64,000 nucleotides of DNA. Origin: Candidatus Undinarchaeota archaeon (lineage in GTDB: Archaea; SpSt-1190; JASMDC01). Position 1 is the stretch's first letter, and every line of letters begins with the position of its first letter. The notes below the pieces were generated by a model, which saw only the letters and a program-made list of their open reading frames with translations, did no database searches and was not told the origin of the DNA. The stretch spans positions 32,001 through 96,000 of the forward strand of contig CAZFHY010000008.1 of assembly GCA_964519305.1 (NCBI GenBank). Direction: 5' to 3'. Positions 9,083-54,124 of the stretch are shown here, in pieces. Made by a program: the position numbers and the translations under genes.

Positions 9083-9127
9083 ATATTTTTTTAAATGCTA
9101 GCACTCCTCCAGAGATAATAATAACGT

Positions 9128-9248: not shown

Positions 9249-9252
9249 ATAA

Positions 9253-9326: not shown

Positions 9327-9329
9327 TGA

Positions 9330-9352
9330 GGGAGGGGGTTGTTCCCCCTCCC
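9330..9352 (+). terminator. GC-rich hairpin immediately after the tRNA pair
   Basis: GGGAGGGGG-TTGTT-CCCCCTCCC. Confidence 0.45.
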
Positions 9353-9437
9353 TGATACCTATCTATCAAGCCCGTGGTCCGTCCACCCACTGGGAAAGGG
9401 ATAAAAATAATGCGCTCCCGCCGCTCATGGAGGCCTC

Positions 9438-10385
9438 ATGATCGACCTCAAGCGTAAGGTACCAAAAGGTAAGGTCTTCGTGTTCAGGACCAAGGACGGC
9501 CGTGAGGTTGGAAGGGCGAGCACCCTCGCAGAGTTCCGTGACTTCCTCCGGGGTATAGACGAGGATTGCCTTCTGAACCATGTGACCCCTGAAAGGAACG
9601 ACTTCGCAGCCTGGCTCGAGGGAGCGTTCAACGAGACCGAACTCGCTAAACGGATGCGGAAAATACCCTTGGACAGGGCCCCGAAGGTAATACGGGCCCA
9701 GCTTCTACTCCTCTTTTCAAGAAGTCACAGGACGGGACGATCCATCCCGCCAATCAAGCAAGAGGATAGGGTGAAGGTGTCACCTCCTCTTGAACGTGGA
9801 ACACGAATGCCCAAAATTGAGAAACAGGGTGCCAAGCAAGTAACTATCGAAGAGAAGATCCCCGCATCCAGAAAACCGACGCCTCCCCGGAAGATCACGA
9901 ATGAGGGCCCGGCAAAGCAGACCAAGGACGTAAAGCGGAACCCTGTCCGTGGTAAACCAAAGACACATCCCGCTCGGGACTCCAAACCGCGGACCGGAGG
10001 GAAAAAACCCATCCTTGCCATGGTCCCCACCCTTGAGGCCGCTATACGCGCGGCATCGGTCAGTTCGGGTACGGGTCTCCTGAACCCACGCCCCCCACCT
10101 GGAGGGAAGCTCGATGGACTGCTCTGGGGGCTCGAGACCTATGTCCATCCAGCGGACGTGCTGGCGGACAGGGCTGGATTCGTCGGTTTCGTCCAAGCTT
10201 GCAGTGAGTACCTCTCAAATGCTGCGAGCAAGTTGACTCCCGAGGCTAGGGTCGCATTGCGTCATCTCGTGGATAACTTCCCTGATGATGCGGCCGTTGT
10301 GCACCGTGCACAGGATTACGTTGAGACCGTCCGGGCCGTCCGGAGTCTAGTCGAGCGGAGTCCAGTCATCGCCACACCTACCTGA
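9438..10385 (+). CDS. Hypothetical protein with N-terminal DUF5752-like domain and basic low-complexity linker
   Basis: ASTLAEFRDFLRGID...HV...NDFAAWL pattern; Lys/Pro-rich middle. Confidence 0.6.
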   Translation: MIDLKRKVPKGKVFVFRTKDGREVGRASTLAEFRDFLRGIDEDCLLNHVTPERNDFAAWLEGAFNETELAKRMRKIPLDRAPKVIRAQLLLLFSRSHRTGRSIPPIKQEDRVKVSPPLERGTRMPKIEKQGAKQVTIEEKIPASRKPTPPRKITNEGPAKQTKDVKRNPVRGKPKTHPARDSKPRTGGKKPILAMVPTLEAAIRAASVSSGTGLLNPRPPPGGKLDGLLWGLETYVHPADVLADRAGFVGFVQACSEYLSNAASKLTPEARVALRHLVDNFPDDAAVVHRAQDYVETVRAVRSLVERSPVIATPT

Positions 10386-34176: not shown

Positions 34177-35235
34177 CTACCGGTCCGCACCTGTCGGAGC
34201 ATCGCTGTCACTGCCCGAGAACAGGTTCCTGAGGTACACGCAGATGACCCGGGGATGGTATCGCGGATTGAAGAGCACGTTGGGAAGCATGTTGCATCCA
34301 TGCGTGCAGAAGCACCTCATGCTCGTTATCCTCTCCCTGACACTGATCGCCTCCTTTGACGACCACAACTTCCTAAAGTCGAGATCATGCTCACGGAGGT
34401 TACCCATCTTCAGGTCCAGTAGCTCACAGGGGAAAACATCCCCGTTGACATGGATGACGGCGTTGATGCTGCCAGCATAGCACGGTGTGATGAATTTATC
34501 CTCTCTCACTGTCTGGATGGTGAGCTGGGTCATCACCTCCTTCGCGCTCTCGACAAGGTTCCCCTTTGTCCTCCTGAACACTTCCTCCATCAGTCTCTCA
34601 TAGGTAGCGATGTCGATATCAGCGATCGCGGGGTCCTGGACATCACCGCGTACGAGCGGGAAGTTTGTGATGTCGGGTCGAAGGTTCTCTCTCAACCATT
34701 CGAGTATGGTGAAGATCCTGTCCTCGTTCAATCTCGAGTATGCGGTTATCGTTCCGAGCTCAAGTCGATCGTTCTCGATGGAGCGCAGCTCCTTGAACGT
34801 CCTTACGGCCTTGTCGAACACACCCTCATTCCCGCGTATCCGATCGTGACGCTCTCCGATATCGTCGATGCTCACGAACACCCTGATCCTGAGCTTGGGG
34901 CATGCCTCCAACGTACTCTCGACCAGCTCGCGTGCAGGTACCGTCCCGTTGGTCGGGATAACGAGGTACCGCATCCTGTTGTTCCTGTAGAACGTCGTGA
35001 CTATATCGAGGAGGTCCTTTCGCAGAAGGGGTTCCCCACCGGTGAGCGAGAGGACAGCGAAGCGCCCCATGCTCTTTGATATCTGCTCGATCTCGTCCAG
35101 ACCGAGCTCACCCTCAGTGTAATTGAGCTCCTTCCAGAAGAAGCAGTGGCTGCATTTGCAGTTGCATCGGTTCGTGACGAAGAACGTGACATACTCTGGT
35201 AGAGCATCTCTTTTAGACACGATCTTGCCTAACAT
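34177..35235 (-). CDS. Radical SAM protein with SPASM/twitch domain
   Basis: CNCKCSHC and TGGEP motifs; CYAG...GDVFPC and CFCTHGC. Confidence 0.9.
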   Translation of the reverse strand: MLGKIVSKRDALPEYVTFFVTNRCNCKCSHCFFWKELNYTEGELGLDEIEQISKSMGRFAVLSLTGGEPLLRKDLLDIVTTFYRNNRMRYLVIPTNGTVPARELVESTLEACPKLRIRVFVSIDDIGERHDRIRGNEGVFDKAVRTFKELRSIENDRLELGTITAYSRLNEDRIFTILEWLRENLRPDITNFPLVRGDVQDPAIADIDIATYERLMEEVFRRTKGNLVESAKEVMTQLTIQTVREDKFITPCYAGSINAVIHVNGDVFPCELLDLKMGNLREHDLDFRKLWSSKEAISVRERITSMRCFCTHGCNMLPNVLFNPRYHPRVICVYLRNLFSGSDSDAPTGADR

Positions 35236-36134
35236 ATCAATCCCCAGATGATACCGCATAGGAACATCAAGAAGTTCAGTTCGTGAAAGATGACGGTAGG
35301 GACAAGGAACCCGAGACCTTTCTCCCGATATATCAGACCGAAGAAACCCAGGTTGACGAGCCAGAAGAGGGGTGGCACGGGGGAGAGCACGATCCCGAGG
35401 AGCTTGCCCCAGTGATGATGAGAGGCACTCGGTGCCATCTGGACCTGCTCCCTGTAGTTCTTTACCGATTTGGCCTTGTACCTAGAGATCATGAGGCTCC
35501 GTCTGAGGATGCCCGACAACGTGAACTCCTTGAGATGGGTCACTTCTATACCTTTGTCCAGGAGAATCGTTCTGCCTTCCTTGAACAATCTGAAGCCCCA
35601 AACGTCGTCCTCTGCCGTCAACAGGTCATCATCGAAGGGGATGAAATGGTCCCTCCGCACAGCAAAACAGTGAGTGCTCGCGGCCTGGAGGTACTTCTCG
35701 GCGATCCTGTCGAAGATGTAGTGCTCGTAGAGGTTCTGGTACTGCGATGCGAAACTGTCCACGGGGCAATCCTTCGAGTACACCGTCTGGACAGCAGAGA
35801 TGTCATTGTTCTCAAGGTCGTCCCTTATCATCTGTAGCGTATCGGGAGTGACCCTCACGTCAGCATCGAGAAAGAGCAGGACCTCGCCTTGCGCATTCTT
35901 CGCCCCTATGTTCCTTGCATGGCCAGCCCCCAATCTTCCATCGCTCGAAAGAACGGTGATCGGGATGTCCTTGTGGTCAGCGAGAAGATGTGGTTCTAGC
36001 ACACCCTCGTGCACGATGATGATCTCGAAGTCCTTGAACGTCGAAGAGACTAGCGCTCCAAGTACCTTCTCAAGGGATCCGCTGTTGTCCATTGACGGAA
36101 TGATGATGGAGAACGACGGGGTCCCCATTCTCAT
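35229..36134 (-). CDS. Family 2 glycosyltransferase
   Basis: SIIIP, ARNIG, FLDAD and ED motifs; C-terminal TMs. Confidence 0.9.
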   Translation of the reverse strand: MRMGTPSFSIIIPSMDNSGSLEKVLGALVSSTFKDFEIIIVHEGVLEPHLLADHKDIPITVLSSDGRLGAGHARNIGAKNAQGEVLLFLDADVRVTPDTLQMIRDDLENNDISAVQTVYSKDCPVDSFASQYQNLYEHYIFDRIAEKYLQAASTHCFAVRRDHFIPFDDDLLTAEDDVWGFRLFKEGRTILLDKGIEVTHLKEFTLSGILRRSLMISRYKAKSVKNYREQVQMAPSASHHHWGKLLGIVLSPVPPLFWLVNLGFFGLIYREKGLGFLVPTVIFHELNFLMFLCGIIWGLIC

Positions 36135-36190
36135 CGGGCCTCGCAGGGAGTGATCGTATCGTCAATGACCACTCCCGGATGCCTCCCTCG

Positions 36191-37264
36191 TCACTTCTTC
36201 GGGACGAGCTCCGGGAACAGTCCGACGATAGTCTCCACGGCCTTGTCGACACCGTCCCAGATAGGATCGAACGTCGGGATGCCGAAGGCCTCCTCGTACT
36301 TCTTCTTAGTCGCTTCGACGTCCTCACGGCTCATGTTCTCATGGTTGATGGCGATGGCCACGATCTTGGTCCCGGAGAAGTGCTCGATGAGGGATATCGC
36401 TTCCTTCACGGGCGGGAGCTCGAACTGCGGGAACCCGGCCCGCGTCTTTCGGGCAGGGGGTACCTGTAGGATGATCGCATCGGGGTTCGAACCACGGATG
36501 ATATATGCAGTTGTGATATACGCTGGATGGTCCAGGGCACCCTGGCCTCCCACGATCACTAGGTCACCGTGCTCGCAAGCATCGACGACCCTACGCTCAA
36601 CAGCGCCCGAGATGAACTCGGCCGGGAGAGCGTCCACGGCAACGCGGTGCCGGGCACCTTGCATGGCGCCGGTCTGGCCTGTCGTTACCAGTCGGACGGA
36701 TATCCCGAGGTCCTCGAGCTTTTCGAACATGAACATCTGTGTAGTGCGCTTTCCGACACCTCCGTCGGTGCCGAGGAGGAGAACGACCGGCTTCTTCTTA
36801 TTGTAGATATCGCCGCTGAGCACTCTCATCTCGCGCTTCTTGGGCGGTTTACGGATGTCCCAGATATCTTTTCCCGTCCGTTCCATGGCCTGGATGAACT
36901 CCTCGTCCTCGGTAAGGAACTCGTGAAGACCGTTGACGACGTCCATCCCCATCTCCATTGCCTTGATGAAGATCGGTCGGAATTCTTCGGGGAACATCCC
37001 GTCATAGGTCGCCAGGCCCATGATGATGCACTGTGGCTTCTGTTCGGCCTTCTCATAGGCCTCCTCCATCGAACCGAAGATAGGGATCGGTTTGGCAGCT
37101 TCGAGGACCTGGTCTGCCGTCTTTCCGGTATGTCGGCTGTCAATGATACCCATGAGGGAGTACTTCCGCGAGAAGCGTGAGAGGCCATTGGCGCTCTTGC
37201 CCAGGCCGTCTCCGAAGCCTCCTTCAGCTATCACGATGGCAGGAATCTGGTCTTTGTATTCCAT
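36191..37264 (-). CDS. DUF1611 family P-loop protein (DgcN-like)
   Basis: GKSANG, VNGLH.FL, GTDGGVGKRTT, TGQTG, FISGAVE and GQGAL.HPAY motifs. Confidence 0.85.
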   Translation of the reverse strand: MEYKDQIPAIVIAEGGFGDGLGKSANGLSRFSRKYSLMGIIDSRHTGKTADQVLEAAKPIPIFGSMEEAYEKAEQKPQCIIMGLATYDGMFPEEFRPIFIKAMEMGMDVVNGLHEFLTEDEEFIQAMERTGKDIWDIRKPPKKREMRVLSGDIYNKKKPVVLLLGTDGGVGKRTTQMFMFEKLEDLGISVRLVTTGQTGAMQGARHRVAVDALPAEFISGAVERRVVDACEHGDLVIVGGQGALDHPAYITTAYIIRGSNPDAIILQVPPARKTRAGFPQFELPPVKEAISLIEHFSGTKIVAIAINHENMSREDVEATKKKYEEAFGIPTFDPIWDGVDKAVETIVGLFPELVPKK

Positions 37265-37562: not shown

Positions 37563-39425
37563 TTATCCCATGAGGAATAAGTTCGCGCCTTCCCCTACAC
37601 CGGATTCCAGGAGGGATGCGTCGTCCTTGAGCACCTTCTCCCCGAAAACGAGGTCCAGGCGTGAGCTATCAGGAAGGCCGAGCGTAGAGCGGAGCTGGAC
37701 CTTGAGCGTGGAGACCGTCTGGTCCTCGGGTATGGATACGTTAGTGTCCTTTCCCCCCTCGATCGGTGATACGATGAGGTTTACCATCTTGACCTGCCGT
37801 TCCACGGCCGCGAGGTTCTGGCCTTTCTTGAGACCGAGCTCACCTACTTGCGTGGTGCTGGGGACGACCGCACCCTTGAGCTGGGCAACGAGCACTCCGT
37901 TCACACCGACGCGCGTTTTGAGGTTGCTGAGCAGATCGCCTACCGTCGATTCGGCCGAGACGTTTATCGTGTGGACGTTCCCCGCGAGCTGTACACCAAC
38001 GGTGATGAGCTTGTTGAGACGCAATCCAGCGCCCTTGTCGAGCCTAGCAGGATCTACAATGAAATCAGGATTAAGGAACACAGGGCCCTGTGAGAGCACG
38101 TAGTCACCCGTCAGACTGCATCGGGTCTTGAGGAGATCGATGGTCTGGGCAGCAGTGATCCTCCCGGGTACCCCGAACCGTTTCGTCCCACCGATCTCAG
38201 GGATGAACACGGCCAACTGTGCCACGGCCTGTATGGTGACCTCGTCCCCGCTTACAAGACCTGCCTGGCTCACGGTACTCTCTCTGTCAAAAGATTGTCC
38301 TCCACGAACAAGGATGGTGTCCGCGAGCTTGAGACCCGCTTTATTGATAACAGCATCGGCAACGTCCCCGAGGCGTGTCTCCGGGCTTACTGAGTGGACC
38401 ATGGTCCCTCTGTTAGCGGGGAGCGTCACCCGTAGCTGGATGAAGTCCGCGCACACATCAGAGAATTTGAGCCCGGCGTAGATCTCGGGATCGTCGATAT
38501 CCGGGGCGCGATCAGAGGGCACGAGCGCTAACCTACGACCGTGAACGAGGAGATTCGTGCGCTCCCACGTCCCTTCCTGCGAGCGGTCAAGGTCCATTAG
38601 CACGTAGCCCTCACTTTCCCCTGCCATTTTGAAATGCTGGAGCACAAGCTCCTTGAGCGTTGTCTGCTCGAAAAGAGGTGATGTTGGATTGGGCAGGATC
38701 GATTTCAGAGGCTCGATCGGGAACACGAGGAACTCCTTTCCCGGTTCGCCGTCCTGCCAGCCGGTCACGTACACCTGGAACTTCACACCCTGGTGGGCTG
38801 AAAAACACTTCGGGCAGCGGTTACGCTGCAGGTCAAGGACGTTCCCGCATCGGACGCAGACCGTGTGCTGTGCGTCAGCCTGCTGGGTCGTCGCATAGAC
38901 CTTTCCGGACGCTAGGAGCTTGCCGATCACTAGGTTACGTAGGAGGGTCTGCTGTTCTCCACGAAGCTTGGCGATATAGGCCCTTGCTACGTTATCCGGG
39001 ACATCGACCAGCCCTTGTAGCTCAGATACCTGCATACGTTGTATGCTGGCGACCGCCTGATTGAGGAAGGGATTGATCCCCATCTCGGCCCGCTTTGTGA
39101 GCTTTATCCTGTTGCTGCGATACTTGCTGGCGGCCATCTCGGAGAGAAGCTCCACGGTACTTGGATAGGTCCATGTGGTGGGTACCTCTACGTTGAGCAC
39201 GAAGTCCCCCTCCTCCTCGGTGACCCAGGTCTTGGCCCTCTCTAGTACATAATGGACATATAGACCGATGGACTTGAGCCTGTAGATACGCGATAGGTGG
39301 TAGACGGATCCGACGATGCGTGTGAAGTTCTCTAGCAGGGCCTGTCCCGGGTCGTTGGGGTCGAAGGGGTGGACCTGAAAGACCTCATCAATGTTCGCAA
39401 GACGGAAATAATACATCCCTGTCAT
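37563..39425 (-). CDS. Zn-ribbon protein with 4-5 tandem ubiquitin-like (beta-grasp) domains
   Basis: CVRC-x10-CPKC; roughly 72-aa repeats with pattern V.V....TV.DL...L......L...G..L....TL...G...G..L.L; ends in LFLMG. Confidence 0.8.
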   Translation of the reverse strand: MTGMYYFRLANIDEVFQVHPFDPNDPGQALLENFTRIVGSVYHLSRIYRLKSIGLYVHYVLERAKTWVTEEEGDFVLNVEVPTTWTYPSTVELLSEMAASKYRSNRIKLTKRAEMGINPFLNQAVASIQRMQVSELQGLVDVPDNVARAYIAKLRGEQQTLLRNLVIGKLLASGKVYATTQQADAQHTVCVRCGNVLDLQRNRCPKCFSAHQGVKFQVYVTGWQDGEPGKEFLVFPIEPLKSILPNPTSPLFEQTTLKELVLQHFKMAGESEGYVLMDLDRSQEGTWERTNLLVHGRRLALVPSDRAPDIDDPEIYAGLKFSDVCADFIQLRVTLPANRGTMVHSVSPETRLGDVADAVINKAGLKLADTILVRGGQSFDRESTVSQAGLVSGDEVTIQAVAQLAVFIPEIGGTKRFGVPGRITAAQTIDLLKTRCSLTGDYVLSQGPVFLNPDFIVDPARLDKGAGLRLNKLITVGVQLAGNVHTINVSAESTVGDLLSNLKTRVGVNGVLVAQLKGAVVPSTTQVGELGLKKGQNLAAVERQVKMVNLIVSPIEGGKDTNVSIPEDQTVSTLKVQLRSTLGLPDSSRLDLVFGEKVLKDDASLLESGVGEGANLFLMG

Positions 39426-39470
39426 AGGTCACGGCTCCCGGGTCCGTCACGATGGGGCACGAATACCTAT

Positions 39471-39480
39471 TTAATATTAA
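39471..39480. promoter_or_regulatory. Palindromic TATA element TTAATATTAA between the multi-Ubl and tubulin-like genes
   Basis: Perfect palindrome centred 26.5 nt from the tubulin ATG, the same spacing as other apparently leaderless genes here. Confidence 0.65.
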
Positions 39481-39501
39481 TCCCCTCCCGATGTCTCAGA
39501 G

Positions 39502-40785
39502 ATGTACGGTGCAGTGGGACTTGGTCAGTGCGGTATGAAGATACTCGACCAGTTGTATATGAACCTGAAGAACGAGAAGACGTTCCTTGACTTCTTCAAA
39601 CAGGACCCGTCAGTGTTCATTACTCCCGTATGTATCACCTCGGGTTTCACCGACTACTACCGTGCATGCCCCAACCTTCGCAAGGCTTTCAAGCTCGATC
39701 CGGTCGTGGGAATCGGGATCGATGGCTCGTGCATCGCCCCTGCCCTGGGAAAGACTGACCAGACAGATTTCGAGGGTCGCGTTAAGGGGGGGATGGGCGC
39801 AACGCCTTGGAAGGGCCACATCCTTCTCGAGGAACACCAGAACGAGTTCCTGAGCGAGTTCCGCCGTCTCCTACACCTTAAGATGGGAGAGAACGGGCCT
39901 CCGGTCATCCTCATGGTGTTCGGTGCAGGGGGCGGTACGGGTTCCGGTACTGCACCTAAGATCGCAGAGTTCCTCAAGCTGGTCTATCCGAACACGCCCA
40001 TCATCGCTGTCGCAGTGCTCCCTGCCGAGGAGAGCGAAGGCTACATGCGTGCATGGAACGCGGTCTGGAACATCACCAAGATGCTCGACCTAGTCGACGG
40101 GCTCATCGTCGTCGATAACCAGGTGGTCCTCGAGCGCGGTCACGGAGCGTTCATCGAGAAGATACCGGTGTTCAACGAGATGGTGGTAGACTCCCTGAAG
40201 AACCTCGTGCTCGACCTCATCGTGTCCATACAGGACTCAACGGGCAAGCTAAACCTGCCCGCTTTCGACATTGCGGACTACATCAGAGCTCTTGCCTATA
40301 TGCCGGGTAAACCCGGTATCGCCTCGATCGGTCGTAGCCAGATGTTCCTTAGCTTCTCGGAGACGCTGCTCCCCTTCTTATCGAAGGACAAGACCCAGCA
40401 GGTCGCCGATGAGACAATGAAGTGCTGGTCGAAACAGCTCATGACCGGGCTGGAAGAGACGCTCCCCGTCTCTGCTGCCATGGTGTTCAAGGTGAACAAG
40501 AAGTACCTGAACAAGGTATACTTCGAGAACATCACCAAGGACCAAGAGTCCCGACTCACTCGCAAGGAGCTCCATCATGGAGTTGTCCCCACCGACAATC
40601 CCGAGATATCCGTAACAACGTCCTTCACCTACAGACCACAGGACGTGAGGCGATTGAAGGAGCTCGAGGTCAAGGGGAACGCGTGGGCCAGAAAGACACT
40701 CCGTGAAGCGAAAAACACCTCACCGGACGAGGCACAAGCGCTATTCGATAACGTTACTGAGATGGAGTTCTTCTCAGGGGGGTAG
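39502..40785 (+). CDS. Divergent tubulin/FtsZ superfamily GTPase (CetZ-like)
   Basis: GLGQCG, GGMGATPWKG, GAGGGTGSG signature, LP..SEG..R..NA, IVVDNQ, FN, and T7-like FDIADY. Confidence 0.9.
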   Translation: MYGAVGLGQCGMKILDQLYMNLKNEKTFLDFFKQDPSVFITPVCITSGFTDYYRACPNLRKAFKLDPVVGIGIDGSCIAPALGKTDQTDFEGRVKGGMGATPWKGHILLEEHQNEFLSEFRRLLHLKMGENGPPVILMVFGAGGGTGSGTAPKIAEFLKLVYPNTPIIAVAVLPAEESEGYMRAWNAVWNITKMLDLVDGLIVVDNQVVLERGHGAFIEKIPVFNEMVVDSLKNLVLDLIVSIQDSTGKLNLPAFDIADYIRALAYMPGKPGIASIGRSQMFLSFSETLLPFLSKDKTQQVADETMKCWSKQLMTGLEETLPVSAAMVFKVNKKYLNKVYFENITKDQESRLTRKELHHGVVPTDNPEISVTTSFTYRPQDVRRLKELEVKGNAWARKTLREAKNTSPDEAQALFDNVTEMEFFSGG

Positions 40786-40806
40786 GCGATAGCTTCTCCT
40801 CGCTCC

Positions 40807-42759
40807 ATGCATCTCTTCGCATTGGTGCTTGTATGTACAGTGATGATCTCGCCAGCGCTCGCACTGAAGACATGCGATTCGCTGGGCCCTCTTCGAGAGG
40901 GCGCGTCCGAGAACTGCACCTTCCCGCACGTCTCGGCGACCGAGGGCATTGTCGTGGACGTGGACCCTGCATCCGTCGCATCCTACACGACCGTGTCATT
41001 CCCGCCTACGGGCTCCAATTTCGAGGTGATCGTCAATGTGACGGCACCACCTTACCGCCTTGTCGTCGAGAATCCACAGCTCAACCTCACCCTGGTAAAC
41101 CGTACATCCGGTACTGTACGGACATGGGCCACGGTCGAAGTGAAGCCCCGGGAACCGGTCGGACTGCTCTGTCCCGAAGCTCCCATCTCCCTGGACCTCG
41201 GCGATAACCTTGACGTGAGCGCATGGGCCTTCGCCACAGATGCGAACGTATCCGCGACCTTCGATGACTCGGTGCTCAATCTCGAGTACGCCCAGAACGT
41301 CACCAGCATGATCCAGGGCATCGTGAAGCTCGCTTCCTTCCGTGCGATCGGCAGCGGTTCCTCGACCATCACCCTTACGGCAACGGGAGAGGGTGATGTG
41401 GTCCTGGACACATGCGAGATCGAAGCCACGGTAAAGGGGAAGGTAACGGGCCCTGAGGTCGACATACCTGTCGTTCTGCCGACAGCCGAGCTCACGACCA
41501 CTGCTACGGTCCTACAGGGGAACGAGACCTTCAACGCCACTGTGACCTTCACGAATGAACAGCGCACCGACCGCATCCTCACAATCTCTGTGAACACAGA
41601 GGCGTTCGATGTGCTCGGCAGCTGGAAGGACGGGGAGCGGACCGAGCTCCTCGTGATGAAGCCCGTTGCGGGGACTGTCATCGTTCTCACGCTCCGCCCG
41701 CGGTTCAACGGGACGGATACACTGCGCGTCACCTACTCGTTCGAGCGGAACGATACGGTTGAGACACTGGTCCGTGCCCCTATCACAAAGCTGGCCTCGG
41801 GAGCTTTCCAGATTATATTCTCGCGCGACCGCCTCGAGGTGTTCCCCGGCGACACGGTCGATACGACCGTCTCTGTCACCGGAGTTCCTGATATTGTCCT
41901 CCCTCTGAACATAACCGTTACTAGCAGTGAGACGTTTGCATCATCCTCTAAGGTGATTCAGGTCGCATCCGGGAAATCCTATGCGCTAAAAGACCTGGGT
42001 CTCGTACCGACTACTTCAGGTCTCCATGCTATATGTGGCGTTATCAAGGATCTATCGGGCGAAGGATGCACCGAGCTGCTCGTTCGAACACCACTTGTCC
42101 AGAGCCTGGCTGTCGGAACCACGTCACAGCGCACCTTCACCGGGATGGCATCACGGTTCCCGATCTCGATCATACTAACAGGGACGGTACCGGCCGACCT
42201 TGTTCGCATCCTCAAGCTGACCGATACCGGAGGTTGTGCCACAGGTCTGAAGGTGGAAGGCCTGACGGTGGCCAACGAAGGATGGTCCGTGCCCGCACGC
42301 GCAGAGGTCAACGGGACCGTTGTCTACTCTTCAACCGGAGGCGCCTGTGAAGTCTCCGTTAATATCACCTGCACTGACGGCAGGTGCGATGATAGTTCGT
42401 CTTCATTGAGCATCGAGACGGTAGCGCTTGATAGCCTCGCTACGGCCGCGATCTCCGTGGAATCGCTCCATGAACGAGAGGACCTCCTTGGACAGCGTGC
42501 TATTGTTGAGAACGAGCGGGCGAAAAAGGCCAAGACGAACGCCGCGGTAGGTGGCGTTCCGGGCATCCTGTTCGGTTTCGGGCTTGGTGGCCTGCTTGCA
42601 GCTCTGATCGGGTTCGCCATTGTAAGGGGAGCTCCCGTACCAAAGAAAAGCAAGGGGCCGGAGATGAGCGCGAAAGAGGACGTTCCGGCTCATGCCGAGG
42701 TCGACGATGATGAGGCCGAGGATGAAGGCTACTGGGAGGGTGAGGACGATGAGGAATAA
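40807..42759 (+). CDS. Exported beta-rich (Ig-like repeat) protein with coiled stalk, C-terminal TM and acidic tail
   Basis: Signal peptide ending ALA; Thr/Val-rich beta-strand pattern; TM GILFGFGLGGLLAALIGFAIV. Confidence 0.75.
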   Translation: MHLFALVLVCTVMISPALALKTCDSLGPLREGASENCTFPHVSATEGIVVDVDPASVASYTTVSFPPTGSNFEVIVNVTAPPYRLVVENPQLNLTLVNRTSGTVRTWATVEVKPREPVGLLCPEAPISLDLGDNLDVSAWAFATDANVSATFDDSVLNLEYAQNVTSMIQGIVKLASFRAIGSGSSTITLTATGEGDVVLDTCEIEATVKGKVTGPEVDIPVVLPTAELTTTATVLQGNETFNATVTFTNEQRTDRILTISVNTEAFDVLGSWKDGERTELLVMKPVAGTVIVLTLRPRFNGTDTLRVTYSFERNDTVETLVRAPITKLASGAFQIIFSRDRLEVFPGDTVDTTVSVTGVPDIVLPLNITVTSSETFASSSKVIQVASGKSYALKDLGLVPTTSGLHAICGVIKDLSGEGCTELLVRTPLVQSLAVGTTSQRTFTGMASRFPISIILTGTVPADLVRILKLTDTGGCATGLKVEGLTVANEGWSVPARAEVNGTVVYSSTGGACEVSVNITCTDGRCDDSSSSLSIETVALDSLATAAISVESLHEREDLLGQRAIVENERAKKAKTNAAVGGVPGILFGFGLGGLLAALIGFAIVRGAPVPKKSKGPEMSAKEDVPAHAEVDDDEAEDEGYWEGEDDEE

Positions 42760-43675
42760 GTACACAGTCCTCCTGCTCTCATTGATACTCATCAGCGGAT
42801 GCACACAGTTCGTGTTCGAGGGCGAACCACCGGCCTGCGAGCCCGATAAGGGTGTTCCCAAGGACTGTATGGATCTTATCAATCCTGTCCGCGGGAGAAT
42901 TGACGCTAAGTTCGTCGAAGGATATGTTGATGATCCTGTCCTGGCCAACGTCTCCATTTGCGAGACGGGAGAACAGGCGCTCAGTGGAGTGACCGGGTGT
43001 ACTCCGGAATCCTTCAAGCATGTCATGTCGGGCTTCATATCAGAGGTCACGCGTGCTGTATCCGGATCGGGACCCCGCGTCGATAAGCTCATCACCGATC
43101 GGATGGAGATATCCTGGGCCACGATATGTGACCGGCCCTCATGTGTACATGATTCGTTGATGACCGCCAGCCGTGCACTAAGGCTATCCCGGTACACAGC
43201 GGACCTGCGCAATGGTACGGTCCCGACGTCGGAAGAGCTCGCGGTATTGACTGTACCCGAGCGCAAGCTCCTTCTCGACTATCCCTCGTTGTACGAGTCG
43301 CGTGTCGTCGAGGCCGGAGAGGAATCACAGAAGAACATCAAGGAATTTGGAGTATCGGGGCTCGGGCCCGAGGCACCTCTTGAGACCTTCAAGGAGGAAC
43401 TCGAGAAGTCCAAGACGTTGTTGGCGGATGAAGGCGAACGTATCCCCGGTCTCGTGACAATGCGGATTCTCCCGGCCGCGCTGGTCGGATGCTTCCTTGT
43501 GCTTATCATCATCATCGCTTACGACCGCAAGTATCGTGCACAGATCGAGTTCTGGAAGACGTTCACAAGCTCCACCAACATCGTCCATCCCCGGTCGGTG
43601 GCCCTAGGTGCCCTGGGGGTGTCTGTTGTACTGGCCATCGCTGGTGCGGTGCTCCTGCTCCTGGGGCGTGGTTGA
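42749..43675 (+). CDS. Putative lipoprotein, helical, with two C-terminal TMs
   Basis: MRNKYTVLLLSLILISGC lipobox; start overlaps the upstream stop. Confidence 0.75.
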   Translation: MRNKYTVLLLSLILISGCTQFVFEGEPPACEPDKGVPKDCMDLINPVRGRIDAKFVEGYVDDPVLANVSICETGEQALSGVTGCTPESFKHVMSGFISEVTRAVSGSGPRVDKLITDRMEISWATICDRPSCVHDSLMTASRALRLSRYTADLRNGTVPTSEELAVLTVPERKLLLDYPSLYESRVVEAGEESQKNIKEFGVSGLGPEAPLETFKEELEKSKTLLADEGERIPGLVTMRILPAALVGCFLVLIIIIAYDRKYRAQIEFWKTFTSSTNIVHPRSVALGALGVSVVLAIAGAVLLLLGRG

Positions 43676-46549
43676 ATGGCTCGTCTCAATAGCACGTTAG
43701 TCGTCCTATTGATTCTCCTTTGCTTGTCCGCCGTGGCAGAAGAGTTCAGCATCACGGGCACCGCCCAGGTCATCGCCTCAAAGGAACCATATGATTACGC
43801 GACCGATGCGGACCTTCTCACGGTAAGGATCACCACCAATCAGAACTCACAGGCGCAGGTCAAGGACGACCGTGGCCGTGTCCTCGGTACCGACGCCACC
43901 TGGTCCAAGAACCACGATATCATGATAGGGAAGCTGAGCTCTGGCGGCTACCAGCTCAAGATAGAGGCCTACAATCTGACCGGTAGCCAGGACTATGCAT
44001 TCGTCTCCTTCAACGTGGCAAAAGCTCGTGCCAACCTACGCACGGTCCCGGTAGAGTATACAAAGGACATCGAGATCCCATGTCGCTCTTCTGGAGCCGT
44101 GAAGATAACCGACAGCCTTTCCCTGACGAATCAGGGTAAGCTCGACGCGTACAACGTCGTGGCACAACTGGACTCATCGTACATGTGTAATGAGGATGGG
44201 GATTGTCCCCTGGAGATCAGCCTTGGTGACCGTTACGAGAATAAAATGAGCTTCAGTGAGGTCCGTTCGGCACAGATTCAGTACATCACGCTCAACATGA
44301 AGACCGTGCAGGTCCTCACACCATGGACGACCTACTCGACACCCCTTCGTATCGAGGGTTCGAACGCACTTGAGATAGTCGTGGACCTGAACATTAGGTT
44401 CGTACCGGCGCTGGACGTGAGAGTGAGCCCTGATACGTTCTCATTCGAGAACGCTTGCGGTAACGAGGAACGGACCATTACCATCGAGGACCGCTGCTGC
44501 GTTTTCGACCTGCCATTGGCCGTTGATGTGAACGTGGACGACCATCCGTTCATATTCGATACGACCAGCTATACGGTCCCCAAGTGCGGGAAGGCGACCG
44601 TCGACTTCAGTCTGGCCAACCTCACACTCCTGGAGGGTGAGGAGGAGAAGCAGGATGAATACAAGATCAACCTACGCTTCGGGGATGAAATGCTCCAGAT
44701 CCCCGCCGATGTGTTGGTCCGACCTCCAGAGCTACGTCTGAGCCCCCGGTCGATCGGGCTGGACGCACCCTGCAAGGGAGAGCTCAAACAGCCTATCGAG
44801 CTGTACGTACCTTCCACGTCCGGTTGCGTTCGTGACCTTGAGCTGAACATAACGGGCAATGTCAAGGATTTCACGTTCGAGTTCGAAGCTGAAAAGACAA
44901 ACAACCTGTCTCCTGGTGACCGGATAAGCGGGACCATGAATATTAATGTCCCGAAGTACATCAAGGCAGGCGAGTATGCAGGCCGTCTAGTGGCGAAATA
45001 TCCGCGCACGAAGACCGAAACGGCAAAGAAAGAGATGGTAATGTTCCTACGTGTACCGCGCTTCGACTACCTCCTCAAGTCCGAGAGGGTGGACATGCGT
45101 GAACTCCCTTGTGGTGATTTCCGGGCCCAGAACATTACGATCGTAGAGGTCGATGGGGGTTGTGCCGAGGGGATCACGGGCGAGATAGTGAACTGCGACT
45201 TCAATAATACCTTCATCACCGTCGCCGAGGACACTATCGGTGTGTCGGCAAAGGAGAGCGGTGACTTCGATCTCGAGGTCAACGTGCCCCATTACCTACC
45301 GCCGGATACGTATTCATGCGGGCTGCTCATCACTGTGCCTGAGCGTGGTGACCGTACGATCCCATTCTCCTTCACGATCCCCCATCCACAGCTCATGATA
45401 GAGATGCCGGACAAGCTCACGCTCTACAAGGAACGCCCCCCGTCGATCACGGGTAACACGAGCCTCACTCTGGCAGAGGTGGGCGGGTTCACCCCTCTCC
45501 GGAACATAACGTTCGATGTCGTTGCCAAGGTTTGCCCCGTTGGGGCCGCGGAGGCGTGCGTGCGCTATGCCAAGGCAGTAGAGACGCCCCTGCCCGTGTT
45601 CGAGATCGACAAGGGGAGCCGGCTCACTGTGCCGATAGGCCTTGGGTTCGACTTCTCCGATCCAAGGGGGGATTACACGATGGGTCTTGTAGTCGATGCT
45701 CTGAACGATGACAGGGCCGCAGAGGAGAGACCCATGGAGTTCGAGATCATCCCACCGAGCTGTCGGAAGGCCAGGGACGATATCAAGCTCATCGATAAAC
45801 GGTTCCCAGAAGTGAAAAAGGCTCTGCGCGACTTCCTCGTCCACTGTGATGACTGGTCCAAGCGGGATCCTGTCATGTCTGCGAAAGCCGCATCCCTCGT
45901 ATCATCCTTCTCGGTGTTCTCGACGAACGTGCTCACTCTCAACGAGATGACACGGAGCCATAACCTAACGTCCGTACGCGCTCTCTCAATCCTGCGTTCG
46001 ACCGAGCGTAACCTCGAAGCGTTGTGTATCGATATCGATGAGGCGCGGCCGATCTGCGAGATGGCCAACGCCACGCTCCTGACGACGCTCGAGGAAGTAG
46101 GAAGGTACTACTGCATGAACTCCACGACGCGTTCCGAGCGTCTGCGTCACAACGGTGCCATGTCCAACGTGTTCCTCGAACGTGTGAACCTGCGCTGTAC
46201 GATCATCGACAATCTGGACGTCGTGTCGACGAGGTACGACAACGTCCAAGCGCTCAGGCAGGAGGCATTGGGGGACCGTATCCTTCCGCCTCGTGCGTTG
46301 GAGAAGTACGCTCGACTGATCGCAGAGTACAGGGATATCGAGAAAGGCTATGCTGACCTTGGGCTCACAGATGATGTCGAAAAAGTGAAGGGTGAACGCA
46401 TCATCATCGAGAGCGAACGCGAGGACCTGGCACTGCTCTGGTCGACATTGATCAACGTGGTCGTCGCCTTCGCGTTCATGGTCACGGTCATCATCACTGG
46501 TATGTACGTGCGTTATCGTATCAAGACGCAGAAGGTGCTTGAGCTGTGA
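43676..46549 (+). CDS. Large exported protein: Ig-like repeats, helical stalk, C-terminal TM
   Basis: Signal peptide; repeated units with G.Y.G.L and PC motifs; helical C-terminal third; TM followed by YVRY. Confidence 0.78.
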   Translation: MARLNSTLVVLLILLCLSAVAEEFSITGTAQVIASKEPYDYATDADLLTVRITTNQNSQAQVKDDRGRVLGTDATWSKNHDIMIGKLSSGGYQLKIEAYNLTGSQDYAFVSFNVAKARANLRTVPVEYTKDIEIPCRSSGAVKITDSLSLTNQGKLDAYNVVAQLDSSYMCNEDGDCPLEISLGDRYENKMSFSEVRSAQIQYITLNMKTVQVLTPWTTYSTPLRIEGSNALEIVVDLNIRFVPALDVRVSPDTFSFENACGNEERTITIEDRCCVFDLPLAVDVNVDDHPFIFDTTSYTVPKCGKATVDFSLANLTLLEGEEEKQDEYKINLRFGDEMLQIPADVLVRPPELRLSPRSIGLDAPCKGELKQPIELYVPSTSGCVRDLELNITGNVKDFTFEFEAEKTNNLSPGDRISGTMNINVPKYIKAGEYAGRLVAKYPRTKTETAKKEMVMFLRVPRFDYLLKSERVDMRELPCGDFRAQNITIVEVDGGCAEGITGEIVNCDFNNTFITVAEDTIGVSAKESGDFDLEVNVPHYLPPDTYSCGLLITVPERGDRTIPFSFTIPHPQLMIEMPDKLTLYKERPPSITGNTSLTLAEVGGFTPLRNITFDVVAKVCPVGAAEACVRYAKAVETPLPVFEIDKGSRLTVPIGLGFDFSDPRGDYTMGLVVDALNDDRAAEERPMEFEIIPPSCRKARDDIKLIDKRFPEVKKALRDFLVHCDDWSKRDPVMSAKAASLVSSFSVFSTNVLTLNEMTRSHNLTSVRALSILRSTERNLEALCIDIDEARPICEMANATLLTTLEEVGRYYCMNSTTRSERLRHNGAMSNVFLERVNLRCTIIDNLDVVSTRYDNVQALRQEALGDRILPPRALEKYARLIAEYRDIEKGYADLGLTDDVEKVKGERIIIESEREDLALLWSTLINVVVAFAFMVTVIITGMYVRYRIKTQKVLEL

Positions 46550-47544
46550 GATCGAACGGAACGGCCCGTGTTCTGGCCATTGCGACAGTGGTACTGTTAG
46601 TGATGCTGACGCCGGCATTGGCGGAACCACGACAGTGTCGACAGCTCATCGATCTGTACTCGGAGATAATCGCGCGTGGCCACAGGGACACGTTCATAAC
46701 AGACATCCCGACGGCCTCTTCGGTGTGCCATTTCGCCCGGGACCTCTCCTATCTTTGTGATTCACAGACACTGCCTTCCGGCGAGGACGGTACCTTCGGA
46801 GCCACTTTCCTCTCGTCCACATTTGACTTCATCAATCACACACGGGATACATACTGGGCGATCACTGCGTCATCCCAGACGTATGATCTGAACCCGTCGA
46901 TCGAGAGCTTCGGTATGATCACCGACAACATCGAGGCACTCGCCGAGGACCGGCAGAACCTCACAGTAGCCTCTTTCGAGCATGAGGAGGTCACAGAGGT
47001 CCTCACGAACGTGGACGATACATATGAGGACATCTGCTTCGTCGCTCTCTCCGTGTTCGATGCTATCGTGGAAGGCGAGCCTAACGTTTGCCGTCAGGCC
47101 GAAGTGCTCGGTCTGGTCTCTTCATGGGCGCGCACGTGCACATCGGCCAAGGCAGAGGAGTATGCCTCGCGTCACAAAGAGGCCGTGGAAAGTTGCACGG
47201 CCCATACGAACAATGCCAAGGAGAAGAGCGCTGAGGGTAAACGGCTCATTCAGGACTATGCGGGTTCAGTGTCCTATATCAAGATGATCCGCTACGCTCA
47301 GGGAAAGAGCGCTCTTGAGAGCGCTCGGCGTTCCTATTCGGTCATCGGCCAGCACGACTCCGCCCAAGAGATGATCTACATCTACTGGGACGCCCATGTG
47401 GAGTACAACATAGCGAAGCTCGACTTCGAGAACCTCGTTCAGGTCCTCCTTATCTCGATAATCCTCATCACGGGCGTCGTGGTATTGCTCTATATGCGCT
47501 ACATAATCATCCGTCGTCGCCAAGAGGAGTACTCTGACCTGTAG
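46546..47544 (+). CDS. Exported helical protein with C-terminal TM
   Basis: Signal peptide ending ALA; GTGA overlap with upstream gene; TM followed by YMRY. Confidence 0.75.
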   Translation: MRSNGTARVLAIATVVLLVMLTPALAEPRQCRQLIDLYSEIIARGHRDTFITDIPTASSVCHFARDLSYLCDSQTLPSGEDGTFGATFLSSTFDFINHTRDTYWAITASSQTYDLNPSIESFGMITDNIEALAEDRQNLTVASFEHEEVTEVLTNVDDTYEDICFVALSVFDAIVEGEPNVCRQAEVLGLVSSWARTCTSAKAEEYASRHKEAVESCTAHTNNAKEKSAEGKRLIQDYAGSVSYIKMIRYAQGKSALESARRSYSVIGQHDSAQEMIYIYWDAHVEYNIAKLDFENLVQVLLISIILITGVVVLLYMRYIIIRRRQEEYSDL

Positions 47545-54049: not shown

Positions 54050-54124
54050 AGCGGGGTAGGGTAGCCTGGAGTGCCCGTCGGGCTCATAACCCGAAGATCG
54101 ATGGTTCAAATCCATCCCCCGCTA
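54050..54124 (+). tRNA. Initiator tRNA-Met(CAT), intronless
   Basis: A1-U72 acceptor AGCGGGG/CCCCGCT; anticodon arm TCGGG-CTCATAA-CCCGA with three G-C pairs; TATTTAAA upstream. Confidence 0.95.

What the first reader, a model, noticed from the sequence alone, without database searches (positions are those of the whole stretch)
37563..47544. Candidate undescribed system: tubulin-family GTPase + multi-ubiquitin-like protein + four membrane-anchored surface proteins
Seen in sequence: a divergent tubulin/FtsZ-superfamily gene leads a tight operon (a 21-nt gap, then overlapping or abutting genes) of four exported proteins, two beta/Ig-rich and two helical, each with a C-terminal TM. Head-to-head, across a 76-nt spacer with a single palindromic TTAATATTAA, is a Zn-ribbon protein with tandem ubiquitin-like (Ubl) domains. 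No canonical division genes, E1/E2/JAB enzymes or ATPase are in the locus. Established knowledge: CetZ proteins control archaeal cell shape; non-conjugated Ubl domains (YukD/EsaB, EccD N-terminus) serve membrane secretion machines; FtsZ-like families have been linked to membrane-remodelling loci. Inference: a cytoskeleton-coupled trans-envelope assembly (adhesion, host contact, protrusion or secretion), in which the filament organises surface stalks through a Ubl adaptor. I do not recognise this gene combination as a described system.
Basis: partly seen in the sequence, partly recalled or inferred. Interest (0 to 1): 0.9.

Follow-up and report, generated by a model that had tools for sequence, protein, structure and literature searches.

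The report
Archaeal tubulin-like gene with surface-protein operon
An archaeal gene for a divergent tubulin-like filament protein sits in one operon with four exported, membrane-anchored surface proteins, a partnership that recurs in distant archaea, while the neighbouring ubiquitin-like protein is found only in this genus.

Summary
They are intact and under purifying selection (dN/dS 0.05-0.18 against a sister species).

- **The GTPase.** It is a two-domain tubulin-superfamily protein. Its closest solved relatives are CetZ, by fold and by family profile. It belongs to a sparse separate clade, with 24 representatives at E<=1e-10 among 1.84 billion.
- **The link to surface proteins.** This is conserved. 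The 957-aa P0005 is a remote homologue (hhalign 97.5%) of a signal-peptide, C-terminally anchored family I call f2.
  - In one other archaeal phylum, 38 genomes were searched. f2 and this tubulin family were each found in 23, both in 22, neither in 14. In 17 of the 22 they lie about 1 kb apart.
  - An f2 profile built without P0005 finds only P0005 among 20,208 frames of the window's genome.
- **The canonical cluster elsewhere.** It also holds a second tubulin, a membrane-tethered coiled-coil protein and a beta-propeller surface protein. The window lacks all three.
- **The ubiquitin-like protein.** The Zn-ribbon, multi-ubiquitin-like protein and three of the four membrane proteins were found only in this genus, so their membership cannot be tested by co-occurrence.
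- **Prior description.** I found no paper describing the cluster in five full-text searches.

The parts
37563..39425 (-). P0001, 620 aa, cytoplasmic (no TM). It has an N-terminal domain of unknown family (1-180), a Zn-ribbon (CxxC...CxxC, residues 190-207), a possible first beta-grasp unit (214-305, unsupported) and four ~72-aa ubiquitin-like repeats (329-620). It ends ...LFLMG, not GG.
   Evidence: PF00240 scores 34.9 bits on residues 546-620 and is the only such match in the genome. dN/dS is 0.117. Found only in this genus.
37566..37790 (-). C-terminal ubiquitin-family domain of P0001 (residues 546-620).
   Evidence: PF00240 34.9 bits (cut-off 25.4) and Rad60-SLD 25.5 bits (cut-off 23.8)..
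39426..39501 (.). 76-nt divergent promoter region. TTTAATATTAA (39470-39480) is centred about 27 nt upstream of the tubulin ATG. I read it as an archaeal TATA box for a leaderless tubulin operon, possibly bidirectional.
   Evidence: A 37-nt block around the element is invariant between the two species, while neighbouring genes have dS 0.37-0.52. The promoter function is inferred.
39502..40785 (+). P0002, 427 aa, a CetZ-like tubulin-superfamily GTPase ('TubA-type'). It has T1 GLGQCG, T4 GGGTGSG and T7 aspartates D256/D259, plus a C-terminal tail ending ...ALFDNVTEMEFFSGG.
   Evidence: (pLDDT 87, pTM 0.89). dN/dS is 0.054.
40807..42759 (+). P0003, 650 aa. It has a signal peptide, an ectodomain with 13 sequons, a TM at 587-605, and a 45-aa cytoplasmic tail ending in an acidic ...DYWEGEDDEE conserved between the two species.
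   Evidence: No homologue outside the genus.
42692..43675 (+). P0004, 327 aa. The start is uncertain because the first ATG overlaps P0003 by 68 nt. It has a lipobox-like signal (LILISGC), an ectodomain, and two C-terminal TMs joined by a conserved cytoplasmic loop. Relatives' clusters have a gene of the same topology just downstream of the tubulin.
   Evidence: The topological analogue is seen; hhalign gives only 56.9% over the last TM, so homology is not shown.
43676..46549 (+). P0005, 957 aa. It has a signal peptide, beta-sandwich domains, a helix-rich stalk, a TM at 925-943 and a conserved 14-aa tail. It is a remote homologue of the f2 family that accompanies this tubulin family in other archaea.
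   Evidence: 97.5%, E 7.7e-12, 235 columns; the only significant f2 hit in the genome, 2e-14.
46546..47544 (+). P0006, 332 aa. It has a signal peptide, an ectodomain, a TM at 297-315 and a conserved tail. The TM and juxtamembrane Y-x-R-Y-x-I motif are shared with P0005. In architecture it resembles f3, the stalk-plus-TM paralogue of f2.
   Evidence: TM+tail z 4.7, 0 of 300 shuffles. f2 and f3 are related. No sequence similarity to f3 was detected.

Best explanation
The locus is a lineage-specific variant of a conserved archaeal cluster that I found described in no paper. In that cluster a CetZ-like tubulin works with exported, membrane-anchored surface proteins.

**Shown.**
- P0002 has the full two-domain tubulin fold, with intact nucleotide-binding loops (T1, T4) and the T7 aspartates.
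- It is in one tight gene string with four proteins that have signal peptides and C-terminal TM anchors.
- One of these, P0005, belongs to the family (f2) that co-occurs with and abuts this tubulin family in other phyla.

**Inferred.**
- The GTPase polymerises on the cytoplasmic face of the membrane.
- It engages the short cytoplasmic tails of the anchored proteins, which are conserved between the two species. These are the Y-x-R-Y-x-I tails of P0005 and P0006, the loop of P0004 and the acidic tail of P0003.
- Through them it positions or organises a stalked, glycosylated surface complex involved in envelope architecture, shape or contact.
- In the canonical cluster a second tubulin (TubB) and a two-TM coiled-coil protein (f1) probably provide the filament partner and membrane tether. 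This genus lacks both. Instead it has, across a shared promoter region, a cytoplasmic Zn-ribbon protein with a ubiquitin-like repeat array. I take that protein to be a lineage-specific adaptor or bundler of the filament; this is the weakest step, about 0.35.
For: **The tubulin.**
- Pfam and motifs support the fold.
- The AlphaFold model has pLDDT 87. The top Foldseek matches are CetZ entries 3zid, 4b46 and 4b45, with E about 1e-19.
- The family profile matches CetZ1 over its full length at 5e-48. The best FtsZ match is 4e-21 and partial.
- In the tree, P0002 sits in a 39-row clade (SH-aLRT 98) with the relatives' TubA. That clade is apart from TubB, from the genome's three FtsZs and from its two other divergent tubulins.

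**The link to f2.**
- P0005 against f2 by hhalign: 97.5%, E 7.7e-12.
- An f2 HMM built without P0005 hits only P0005 significantly among 20,208 frames of the genome. The score is 2e-14 and the next best is 0.007.
- In 38 genomes of one other phylum, f2 was found in 23, TubA in 23, both in 22 and neither in 14. The two single-gene genomes are 62% and 70% complete.
- In 17 of the 22 with both, the two genes lie about 1 kb apart on one contig.
- Among 41 sampled archaeal genomes, strong f2 matches occur only in the four that have TubA-family matches.
- Cluster partners also turn up in the 74 metagenome loci of a second subclade: f1 in 29 ORFs, f3 in 17, f4 in 23 and f2 in 9.

**Tails and regulation.**
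- f2 and f3 carry conserved cytoplasmic tail motifs.
- The TM and tails of P0005 and P0006 are about 100% identical between the two species, while the ectodomains are 86-91% identical.
- The promoter block is conserved.
- All six genes are under purifying selection.
Against: - No expression or interaction data exist.
- The homology of P0005 to f2 covers only the beta-sandwich part (235 columns). Similar domains give weak hits in unrelated large proteins.
- P0003, P0004, P0006 and P0001 have no detectable relatives in the canonical clusters.
- f1, f3 and TubB are not found in this genome, so the window may work differently from the canonical cluster.
- The Ubl link rests on adjacency in two species of one genus.
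- Only one Ubl domain passes a curated threshold.
- The genomes counted within one phylum are relatives, not independent observations.
- The query alignments A2 and A4 contain members from those lineages.
Confidence: 0.6

Rival explanations
1. The tubulin is an ordinary CetZ-type cell-shape protein. The downstream genes are unrelated envelope or adhesin genes that merely share its transcript, and the Ubl gene is an unrelated neighbour.
For: - CetZ is the closest solved relative.
- CetZ genes are reported next to varied surface and pilus genes (PMC9856176, passages read).
- Three of the four membrane proteins and the Ubl protein have no conserved linkage.
Against: - TubA and f2 co-occur and co-vanish: both in 22, neither in 14, one alone in 2 of 38 genomes. 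They lie about 1 kb apart in 17 of the 22.
- The only f2-like protein in this genome lies three genes from the only TubA-type gene.
- The family forms a separate clade from the other tubulin-like sequences in the tree.
Confidence: 0.2
2. The Ubl protein is the substrate or modifier of a ubiquitin/SAMP-like conjugation pathway, or of a bacterial-type polyUbl conflict system, and the tubulin operon is incidental.
For: - A genuine PF00240 domain sits at the extreme C-terminus and ends in Gly.
- PolyUbl proteins are known in prokaryotic E1/E2/JAB operons (PMC1779556, passages read).
Against: - The C-terminus is ...LMG, not GG.
- There is no E1, E2 or JAB among the six flanking ORFs scanned.
- The only ThiF match in the genome is on contig C9.
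- No PADLOC defence model matches any of the six proteins.
Confidence: 0.07
3. It is a TubZ-like DNA-partition module of a mobile element. The Zn-ribbon protein would be the centromere-binding adaptor and the palindrome its site.
For: - TubZ entries are among the structural matches (2xka, rank 14; RepX and TubZ).
- A divergent neighbour with a Zn-ribbon sits across a conserved palindrome.
Against: - CetZ matches rank above TubZ.
- There are no iterated repeats in or near the spacer.
- The flanks are housekeeping genes and base composition is even.
- There is no PHROG match beyond one weak tubulin hit.
- The operon encodes exported proteins.
- The same locus is chromosomal and syntenic in the sister species.
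Confidence: 0.04
4. It is a Ubl-assisted secretion machine of the ESX/YukD kind.
For: There is a sub-threshold YukD match: PF08817 at 16.6-18.7 bits against a cut-off of 27.
Against: - There is no FtsK/EccC-type ATPase, no polytopic channel protein and no WXG-like substrate in the locus.
- The same domain fits ubiquitin and Rad60-SLD better.
Confidence: 0.03

Closest known systems
CetZ (archaeal tubulin-like cell-shape proteins; structures 4b46, 4b45, 3zid)
   Same: - Both have the two-domain tubulin/FtsZ fold.
- CetZ gives the best structural matches and the best profile matches, full length at 5e-48 to 1e-36.
- The T4 and T7 motifs are present.
- The literature suggests surface-linked roles for some CetZ genes (PMC9856176, passages read).
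   Different: - Identity to the solved CetZ chains is only about 20% in the structural alignments.
- P0002 on its own scores CetZ, BtubB and FtsZ about equally, at 1e-10 to 1e-8.
- The family forms its own clade (which contains no labelled CetZ reference).
- The neighbourhood is unlike the cofactor or type IV pilus neighbourhoods reported for cetZ.
'CetZ-like', 'Halo.Tub' and 'non-canonical tubulin-superfamily' groups of Santana-Molina et al. 2023 (PMC9871819) and Brown & Duggin 2023 (PMC9856176)
   Same: - These are sparse archaeal tubulin groups near CetZ.
- Their neighbours are unknown, coiled-coil-rich genes, with several tubulin copies in quasi-tandem.
- That description fits the TubA - f1 (coiled coil) - TubB arrangement seen here in relatives.
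   Different: - I could not confirm that the sequences are the same, because the supplements are closed.
- The passages I read do not mention signal-peptide/TM-anchored partners, a beta-propeller protein or any Ubl protein.
FtsZl1 membrane-remodelling clusters (Makarova & Koonin 2010, PMC2875224)
   Same: A divergent tubulin-superfamily gene sits in an operon with membrane-associated proteins.
   Different: - PF13809 is below threshold, at 17 bits against 27.
- The paper reports that FtsZl1 lacks identifiable T6-H7 elements, whereas P0002 has the full fold.
- No vWA, OmpA or extra GTPase genes are present.
Paired tubulins (BtubA/B, Asgard AtubA/B, alpha/beta-tubulin)
   Same: The canonical cluster in relatives encodes two distinct tubulin paralogues, both with GGGTG(S/N)G and T7 aspartates.
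   Different: - The window encodes only the A-type.
- The two paralogues are not adjacent; a membrane coiled-coil gene separates them.
- Heterodimer formation is untested.
Beta-grasp microtubule binders of eukaryotes (doublecortin tandem domains, tubulin cofactors B and E, Atg8/LC3). These names are recalled, not taken from any call.
   Same: Ubiquitin-like folds, sometimes in tandem, act as non-covalent tubulin or filament binders. That is what I propose for P0001.
   Different: No sequence relationship was tested or claimed. This is an analogy only.

Membership tests
Tubulin/FtsZ superfamily | GTPase-domain profile above the curated cut-off | tested here: met
   PF00091 scores 77.7 bits against a cut-off of 33.
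Tubulin/FtsZ superfamily | T1 GxGxxG, T4 GGGTG(S/T)G and T7 acidic residues | tested here: met
   GLGQCG at residues 6-11, GGGTGSG at 143-149, D259 invariant and D256 nearly invariant across 31 family members.
Tubulin/FtsZ superfamily | Two-domain fold (GTPase domain plus C-terminal activation domain) | tested here: met
   The AF2 model has pLDDT 87 and pTM 0.89. 1108 PDB chains match at E<=0.001, and all those listed are tubulin, FtsZ, CetZ or TubZ.
Tubulin/FtsZ superfamily | GTP-dependent polymerisation | not testable with these tools
   Needs purified protein.
FtsZ (cell division) | Equivalog model TIGR00065 above cut-off | tested here: not met
   P0002 scores 42.2 bits against a cut-off of 295.2. 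The genome has three other genes that score 403-448 bits.
CetZ | Closest to solved CetZ proteins by sequence profile and by fold | tested here: met
CetZ | Placement inside the CetZ clade, bounded by the Thermococcales CetZ (criterion of PMC9856176) | tested here: inconclusive
   The tree has no labelled CetZ reference. The family forms a separate clade with SH-aLRT 98.
CetZ | CetZ-specific signature residues (PMC9856176, Figure 2) | not tested
   Figures are not held, so the residues could not be mapped.
FtsZl1 | Tubulin_2 (PF13809) profile; vWA, OmpA and GTPase neighbours | tested here: not met
   PF13809 scores 17 bits against a cut-off of 27. No such neighbours are present.
TubZ/TubR partition system | Small DNA-binding adaptor, iterated centromere repeats and a mobile-element context | tested here: not met
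   No repeats, housekeeping flanks and no PHROG support.
Ubiquitin family (PF00240) | Profile above cut-off | tested here: met
   Residues 546-620 score 34.9 bits against a cut-off of 25.4. Residues 329-545 are sub-threshold only.
Conjugatable Ubl (ubiquitin, SAMP, Urm1 type) | C-terminal Gly-Gly with linked E1, E2 or JAB enzymes | tested here: not met
   The protein ends ...LMG. There is no E1, E2 or JAB in the six flanking ORFs scanned. ThiF is found only on contig C9.
YukD/ESX Ubl | PF08817 above cut-off with FtsK/EccC-type ATPase neighbours | tested here: not met
   PF08817 scores 16.6-18.7 bits against a cut-off of 27. No ATPase is present.
TubA-f2 cluster (defined here) | TubA-clade tubulin within a few genes of an f2-family protein (signal peptide, beta-sandwich, stalk, C-terminal TM) | tested here: met
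TubA-f2 cluster (defined here) | f1 coiled-coil tether, second tubulin TubB, f3 and f4 partners | tested here: not met
   The f1 and f3 HMMs have no hit in the genome. f4 hits lie only on other contigs and are beta-propeller proteins. There is no TubB-type gene in the locus.

The most novel reading that the evidence does not exclude
The Zn-ribbon protein with four or five ubiquitin-like domains is a non-covalent, MAP-like filament binder. Its repeats dock along a CetZ-like polymer, and its N-terminal part and Zn-ribbon bridge to the conserved cytoplasmic tails of stalked surface glycoproteins. That would make a prokaryotic trans-envelope link between cytoskeleton and surface. In it, a ubiquitin-family array replaces the second tubulin and coiled-coil tether used by other archaea.
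Probability: 0.15. Interest if true: 0.85.

Novelty: new variant of a known kind. Interest (0 to 1): 0.62.

Why it matters
Archaea encode many 'non-canonical' tubulin-like proteins whose functions are unknown.

- **A defined partner set.** This tubulin clade has a conserved partner set. It comprises exported, membrane-anchored stalk proteins with conserved cytoplasmic tails, a beta-propeller surface protein, a membrane-tethered coiled-coil protein and a second tubulin. Together these give a concrete, testable hypothesis for a cytoskeleton that acts on the cell surface.
- **Material for experiments.** The partner set names proteins for co-purification, localisation and reconstitution.
- **A natural comparison.** The window's variant keeps only the tubulin and one conserved surface partner. 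It adds a ubiquitin-family repeat protein, a domain family otherwise absent from this genome. Comparing the two versions could show which parts of the system are interchangeable.

Tried and rejected
**Steps that led nowhere or gave no usable answer**
- AlphaFold of P0001 with its single homologue gave pLDDT 30 and was unusable. No fold search was run on it.
- Complex prediction of P0002 with P0001 residues 181-620 returned 'no answer'. I do not use it for or against binding.
- ESM Atlas look-ups of P0001, whole and residues 1-213, gave no usable hit.
- The look-up of sequencing runs listed no RNA holder, so read laying was not used and co-transcription is untested.
- PDB sequence searches found nothing significant for the f2 family (best E 0.23) and nothing for P0003.
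- hhalign of P0001, P0003, P0004 and P0006 against f1-f4 and the metagenome families found no convincing match. The best were P0004 against the 'signal peptide plus two C-terminal TM' family at 56.9% over one TM, and P0003 against f4 at 25.5%.
- The P0005 stalk against the P0006 ectodomain showed no similarity, z 0.8.
- Pairwise tests of the Ubl repeats were weak: z 0-2.9 and hhalign p 0.02-0.07.
- The genome's second divergent tubulin locus (L056) has large exported proteins, but they are not f2-related.
- PADLOC found no match. PHROGs gave only one weak tubulin hit, E 0.0035.
- I did not build a tree with named CetZ, TubZ or tubulin references, because none were available as stored sequences.
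- Supplements of PMC9871819, PMC9856176 and PMC2875224, which I could not see, may list these sequences or neighbourhoods.

Full report
**Observation**

The six ORFs lie exactly as reported.
- P0001 runs 37563-39425 on the minus strand. It faces P0002 (39502-40785) across a 76-nt spacer that holds TTAATATTAA at 39471-39480.
- P0002 is followed after 21 nt by P0003. P0004 comes next; its first ATG overlaps P0003 by 68 nt, so its true start is uncertain. P0005 abuts P0004, and P0006 overlaps P0005 by 4 nt.
- A sister species has the same six genes in the same order. Its tubulin is 97% identical and its record title, as printed by the tool, reads 'Candidatus Undinarchaeales archaeon'.
- All six genes give dN/dS 0.05-0.18 at dS 0.37-0.52, the same range as two flanking housekeeping genes. 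They are real genes under constraint.

**The tubulin-like protein**

- P0002 matches Pfam Tubulin at 77.7 bits. It matches the FtsZ equivalog at only 42 bits against a 295 cut-off, and Tubulin_2 (FtsZl1) only below threshold.
- The genome has six PF00091 genes. Three are true FtsZs at 403-448 bits, two are other divergent copies, and the sixth is this one.
- A full HMMER scan of 1.84 billion representatives found 224 proteins at E<=0.001, but only 24 at E<=1e-10 and one at E<=1e-30. The family is sparse and distinct, with members about 30% identical over their full length.
- In an alignment of 31 members, the T1 glycines, the T4 GGGTG motif and the T7 aspartates D256 and D259 are invariant or nearly so.
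- The AlphaFold model built on that alignment is confident, with pLDDT 87 and pTM 0.89. Its best PDB matches are the three CetZ entries, ahead of tubulins, OdinTubulin, TubZ and FtsZ.
- The family profile matches CetZ1 over its full length at 5e-48, CetZ2 at 9e-39 and the Methanosaeta CetZ at 1e-36. FtsZ reaches at best 4e-21 and only over the N-terminal domain.
- P0002 alone is nearly equidistant from CetZ, BtubB and FtsZ.
- I built a quick maximum-likelihood tree of 72 rows.
  - Rows were 28 of the 31 A1 family proteins, a sample of more distant hits, the genome's five other paralogues and tubulins from fetched loci. No named reference sequences were available.
  - It puts P0002 in a 39-row clade (SH-aLRT 98) with the 'TubA' genes described below. 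That clade is apart from 'TubB', from the FtsZs and from the genome's two other divergent copies.
  - P0002's nearest neighbour beyond its own genus is the G040 tubulin. Support is 89, the branches are long, and the placement is unsure.

**The neighbours elsewhere**

- A scan of species-representative genomes with nine family members returned 31 loci. By their titles they come from Hydrothermarchaeota, Altiarchaeales, Bathyarchaeia, Micrarchaeota and unclassified archaea, plus some weaker bacterial hits.
- I clustered the ORFs of these loci together with three loci fetched earlier. Two of the three duplicate contigs already in the set. A recurrent cluster appeared in about 19 loci:
  - f4: about 850-900 aa, with a signal peptide, a PQQ/WD40-like beta-propeller and a CarboxypepD_reg domain.
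  - f2 and f3, divergent from TubA. f2 is about 670 aa, with a signal peptide, NEW3/fn3-like beta-sandwiches and a C-terminal TM. f3 is about 330 aa, with a signal peptide and a C-terminal TM.
  - TubA, then f1: about 460 aa, with two N-terminal TMs and a long charged helical region.
  - TubB: a second, more divergent tubulin that keeps GGGTGNG and the IDIADY T7 loop.
  - Pfam assignments are and the TubB motifs.
- f3 is homologous to the C-terminal stalk-plus-TM half of f2 (hhalign 96.5%).
- Both f2 and f3 carry conserved cytoplasmic tail motifs directly after the TM.
- A metagenome scan with a second subclade of the same tubulin family returned 74 loci.
  - Among their ORFs, f1 was hit in 29, f3 in 17, f4 in 23 and f2 in 9.
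  - A small two-TM protein and a 'signal peptide plus two C-terminal TM' protein sit directly after TubA.
  - A membrane protein with double Zn-ribbons sits directly before TubA.
  - Often a third tubulin copy is present.

**How the window fits**

- Of the window's five non-tubulin proteins, only P0005 has relatives in these clusters.
  - phmmer hits f2 members in three loci, at 2e-8 to 1.5e-4.
  - hhalign against an f2 alignment that excludes P0005 gives 97.5%, E 7.7e-12 over 235 columns.
- The reverse test is the strongest. The f2 HMM, run over all 20,208 frames of at least 80 codons in the genome, has one significant hit, P0005 at 2e-14. The next best is 0.007. So the single f2-like gene lies three genes from the single TubA-clade gene.
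- In the 38 genomes of G017's phylum, f2 was found in 23 and TubA in 23.
  - Both were found in 22 and neither in 14.
  - The two exceptions are 62% and 70% complete.
  - Reading the coordinates, 15 pairs lie 965-1093 nt apart on one contig. Two more have an f2 fragment at that distance. Five are on different contigs of assemblies with 180-280 contigs.
- In the 41-genome sample around the window, strong f2 matches occur only in G000, G001, G017 and G040. These are the same four that have TubA-family matches at E<=1e-24.
- Two cautions apply. These genomes are relatives, and alignments A2 and A4 contain sequences from those lineages.
- P0004 has the topology of the gene that follows TubA in the second subclade, but homology is not shown (56.9% over one TM).
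- P0006 has the architecture of f3. It shares with P0005 its TM and a juxtamembrane Y-x-R-Y-x-I motif (z 4.7; 0 of 300 shuffles reach the score). This parallels the f2/f3 relation, but P0006 shows no sequence similarity to f3.
- f1, f3 and TubB were not found in this genome.

**The ubiquitin-like protein**

- P0001 has no TM. It has one relative cluster among 5.8 billion and no paralogue in the genome.
- It has no match in the fetched loci apart from the sister species.
- Its last 75 residues pass the Pfam ubiquitin threshold. This is the only PF00240 match in the genome, and none of 14 control genomes has one above threshold.
- Residues 329-401 and 473-542 give only sub-threshold, full-length matches to other beta-grasp families.
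- The four ~72-aa segments 329-620 align in register with a shared G..L....T(L/V)...G(L/V)..G..L pattern, but the statistics are weak. The structure model failed. I rate a four-unit Ubl array as likely, not shown. A fifth unit (214-305) is unsupported.
- The protein ends ...LMG, not GG. No E1, E2 or JAB gene is nearby, and no defence model matches. A non-conjugated, scaffolding role is the better reading.
- The Zn-ribbon is 100% conserved between the two species. A Zn-ribbon protein also precedes TubA in the second subclade. That is a lead, not evidence, since Zn-ribbons are promiscuous.

**Regulation**

- A 37-nt block around TTTAATATTAA is invariant between the two species.
- Its centre lies about 27 nt upstream of the tubulin ATG. 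From established knowledge of archaeal promoters, this fits a TATA box driving a leaderless operon. Because it is palindromic, it could also serve the divergent P0001 gene. This is inference.
- No centromere-like repeats and no RNA families are present in the locus.

**Mechanism**

- *Shown:* an intact tubulin fold with catalytic motifs, operon-like packing with four exported, anchored proteins, and conserved partnership with the f2 family.
- *Inferred:* membrane-proximal polymerisation, coupling through the conserved cytoplasmic tails, and organisation of a stalked glycoprotein surface complex.
- In this genus the Ubl protein would substitute for the f1 tether and TubB. That is the weakest step.

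**Comparison with the literature**

- FtsZl1/FtsZl2 (PMC2875224; outline and passages read) differ in profile, fold elements and neighbours.
- Santana-Molina et al. (PMC9871819; one section and passages read) report CetZ in Hydrothermarchaeota. They also report 'CetZ-like' and 'Halo.Tub' groups whose contexts hold unknown coiled-coil genes and quasi-tandem tubulin copies. This probably includes the family studied here.
- Brown & Duggin (PMC9856176; passages read) describe patchy 'non-canonical' tubulin-superfamily proteins, and cetZ next to pilus and envelope genes.
- None of the passages I read describes the f1-f4 partner set or a Ubl partner.
- Five full-text searches found nothing closer.
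One is labelled a TPR repeat protein.
- Supplements were closed and may hold relevant neighbourhood tables.

**Verdict**

There is a real, conserved and apparently undescribed tubulin-plus-surface-protein cluster, and the window holds a stripped-down variant of it.
- The Ubl protein's membership is unproven.

Noticed in passing
whole genome G000 (window = C8:32001-96000): The genome is 3.63 Mb and its sister is 3.8 Mb. The 15 same-class genomes sampled are 0.6-1.2 Mb. The sister's public title calls it Undinarchaeales. This looks like a large-genome lineage inside a class of reduced genomes, and it carries six tubulin-superfamily genes.
   Followed up: no
L056 (G000:C1:30000-49999), tubulin at locus 9061-10329 (-): A second divergent tubulin-like gene of the same genome is also flanked by large proteins with N-terminal and/or C-terminal hydrophobic segments (937, 625 and 670 aa). 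They are not f2-related.
   Followed up: partly
L039 4243-14012, and similar loci L029-L045: The canonical cluster in Hydrothermarchaeota-type genomes is f4 > <f2 <f3 > TubA > f1 > TubB. There are two GTPase-competent tubulin paralogues, separated by a two-TM coiled-coil protein.
   Followed up: yes
L058 and other metagenome loci L058-L131: In a second subclade from metagenomes, a ~690-aa membrane protein with two Zn-ribbons and a long helical tail sits just upstream of TubA. A third tubulin copy is often present.
   Followed up: partly
L026 9995-12148: The Altiarchaeales member of the tubulin family is 717 aa, with a C-terminal extension of repeated units that gives a weak Rho_N-like match. 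A 1179-aa Kelch-repeat protein with a late TM lies upstream.
   Followed up: no
L022 7556-13105 (G034:C17): Five tubulin-like genes of 324-342 aa lie in tandem on one strand. In the tree they branch near the FtsZ outgroup.
   Followed up: no
L054/L055 9665-12052: In Archaeoglobaceae records, a tubulin-like gene from another clade is directly followed by a 397-aa protein with a signal peptide and a C-terminal TM. This may be another pairing of a tubulin with an anchored protein.
   Followed up: no
window 34177-37264 (-): Upstream of P0001 lie a DUF1611 P-loop protein, a family-2 glycosyltransferase and a radical-SAM/SPASM protein. The glycosyltransferase could act on the sequon-rich surface proteins, but no conservation of this link was seen.
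   Followed up: no
window 54050-54124 (+): A tRNA gene, the only Rfam match in 30000-55000.
   Followed up: no
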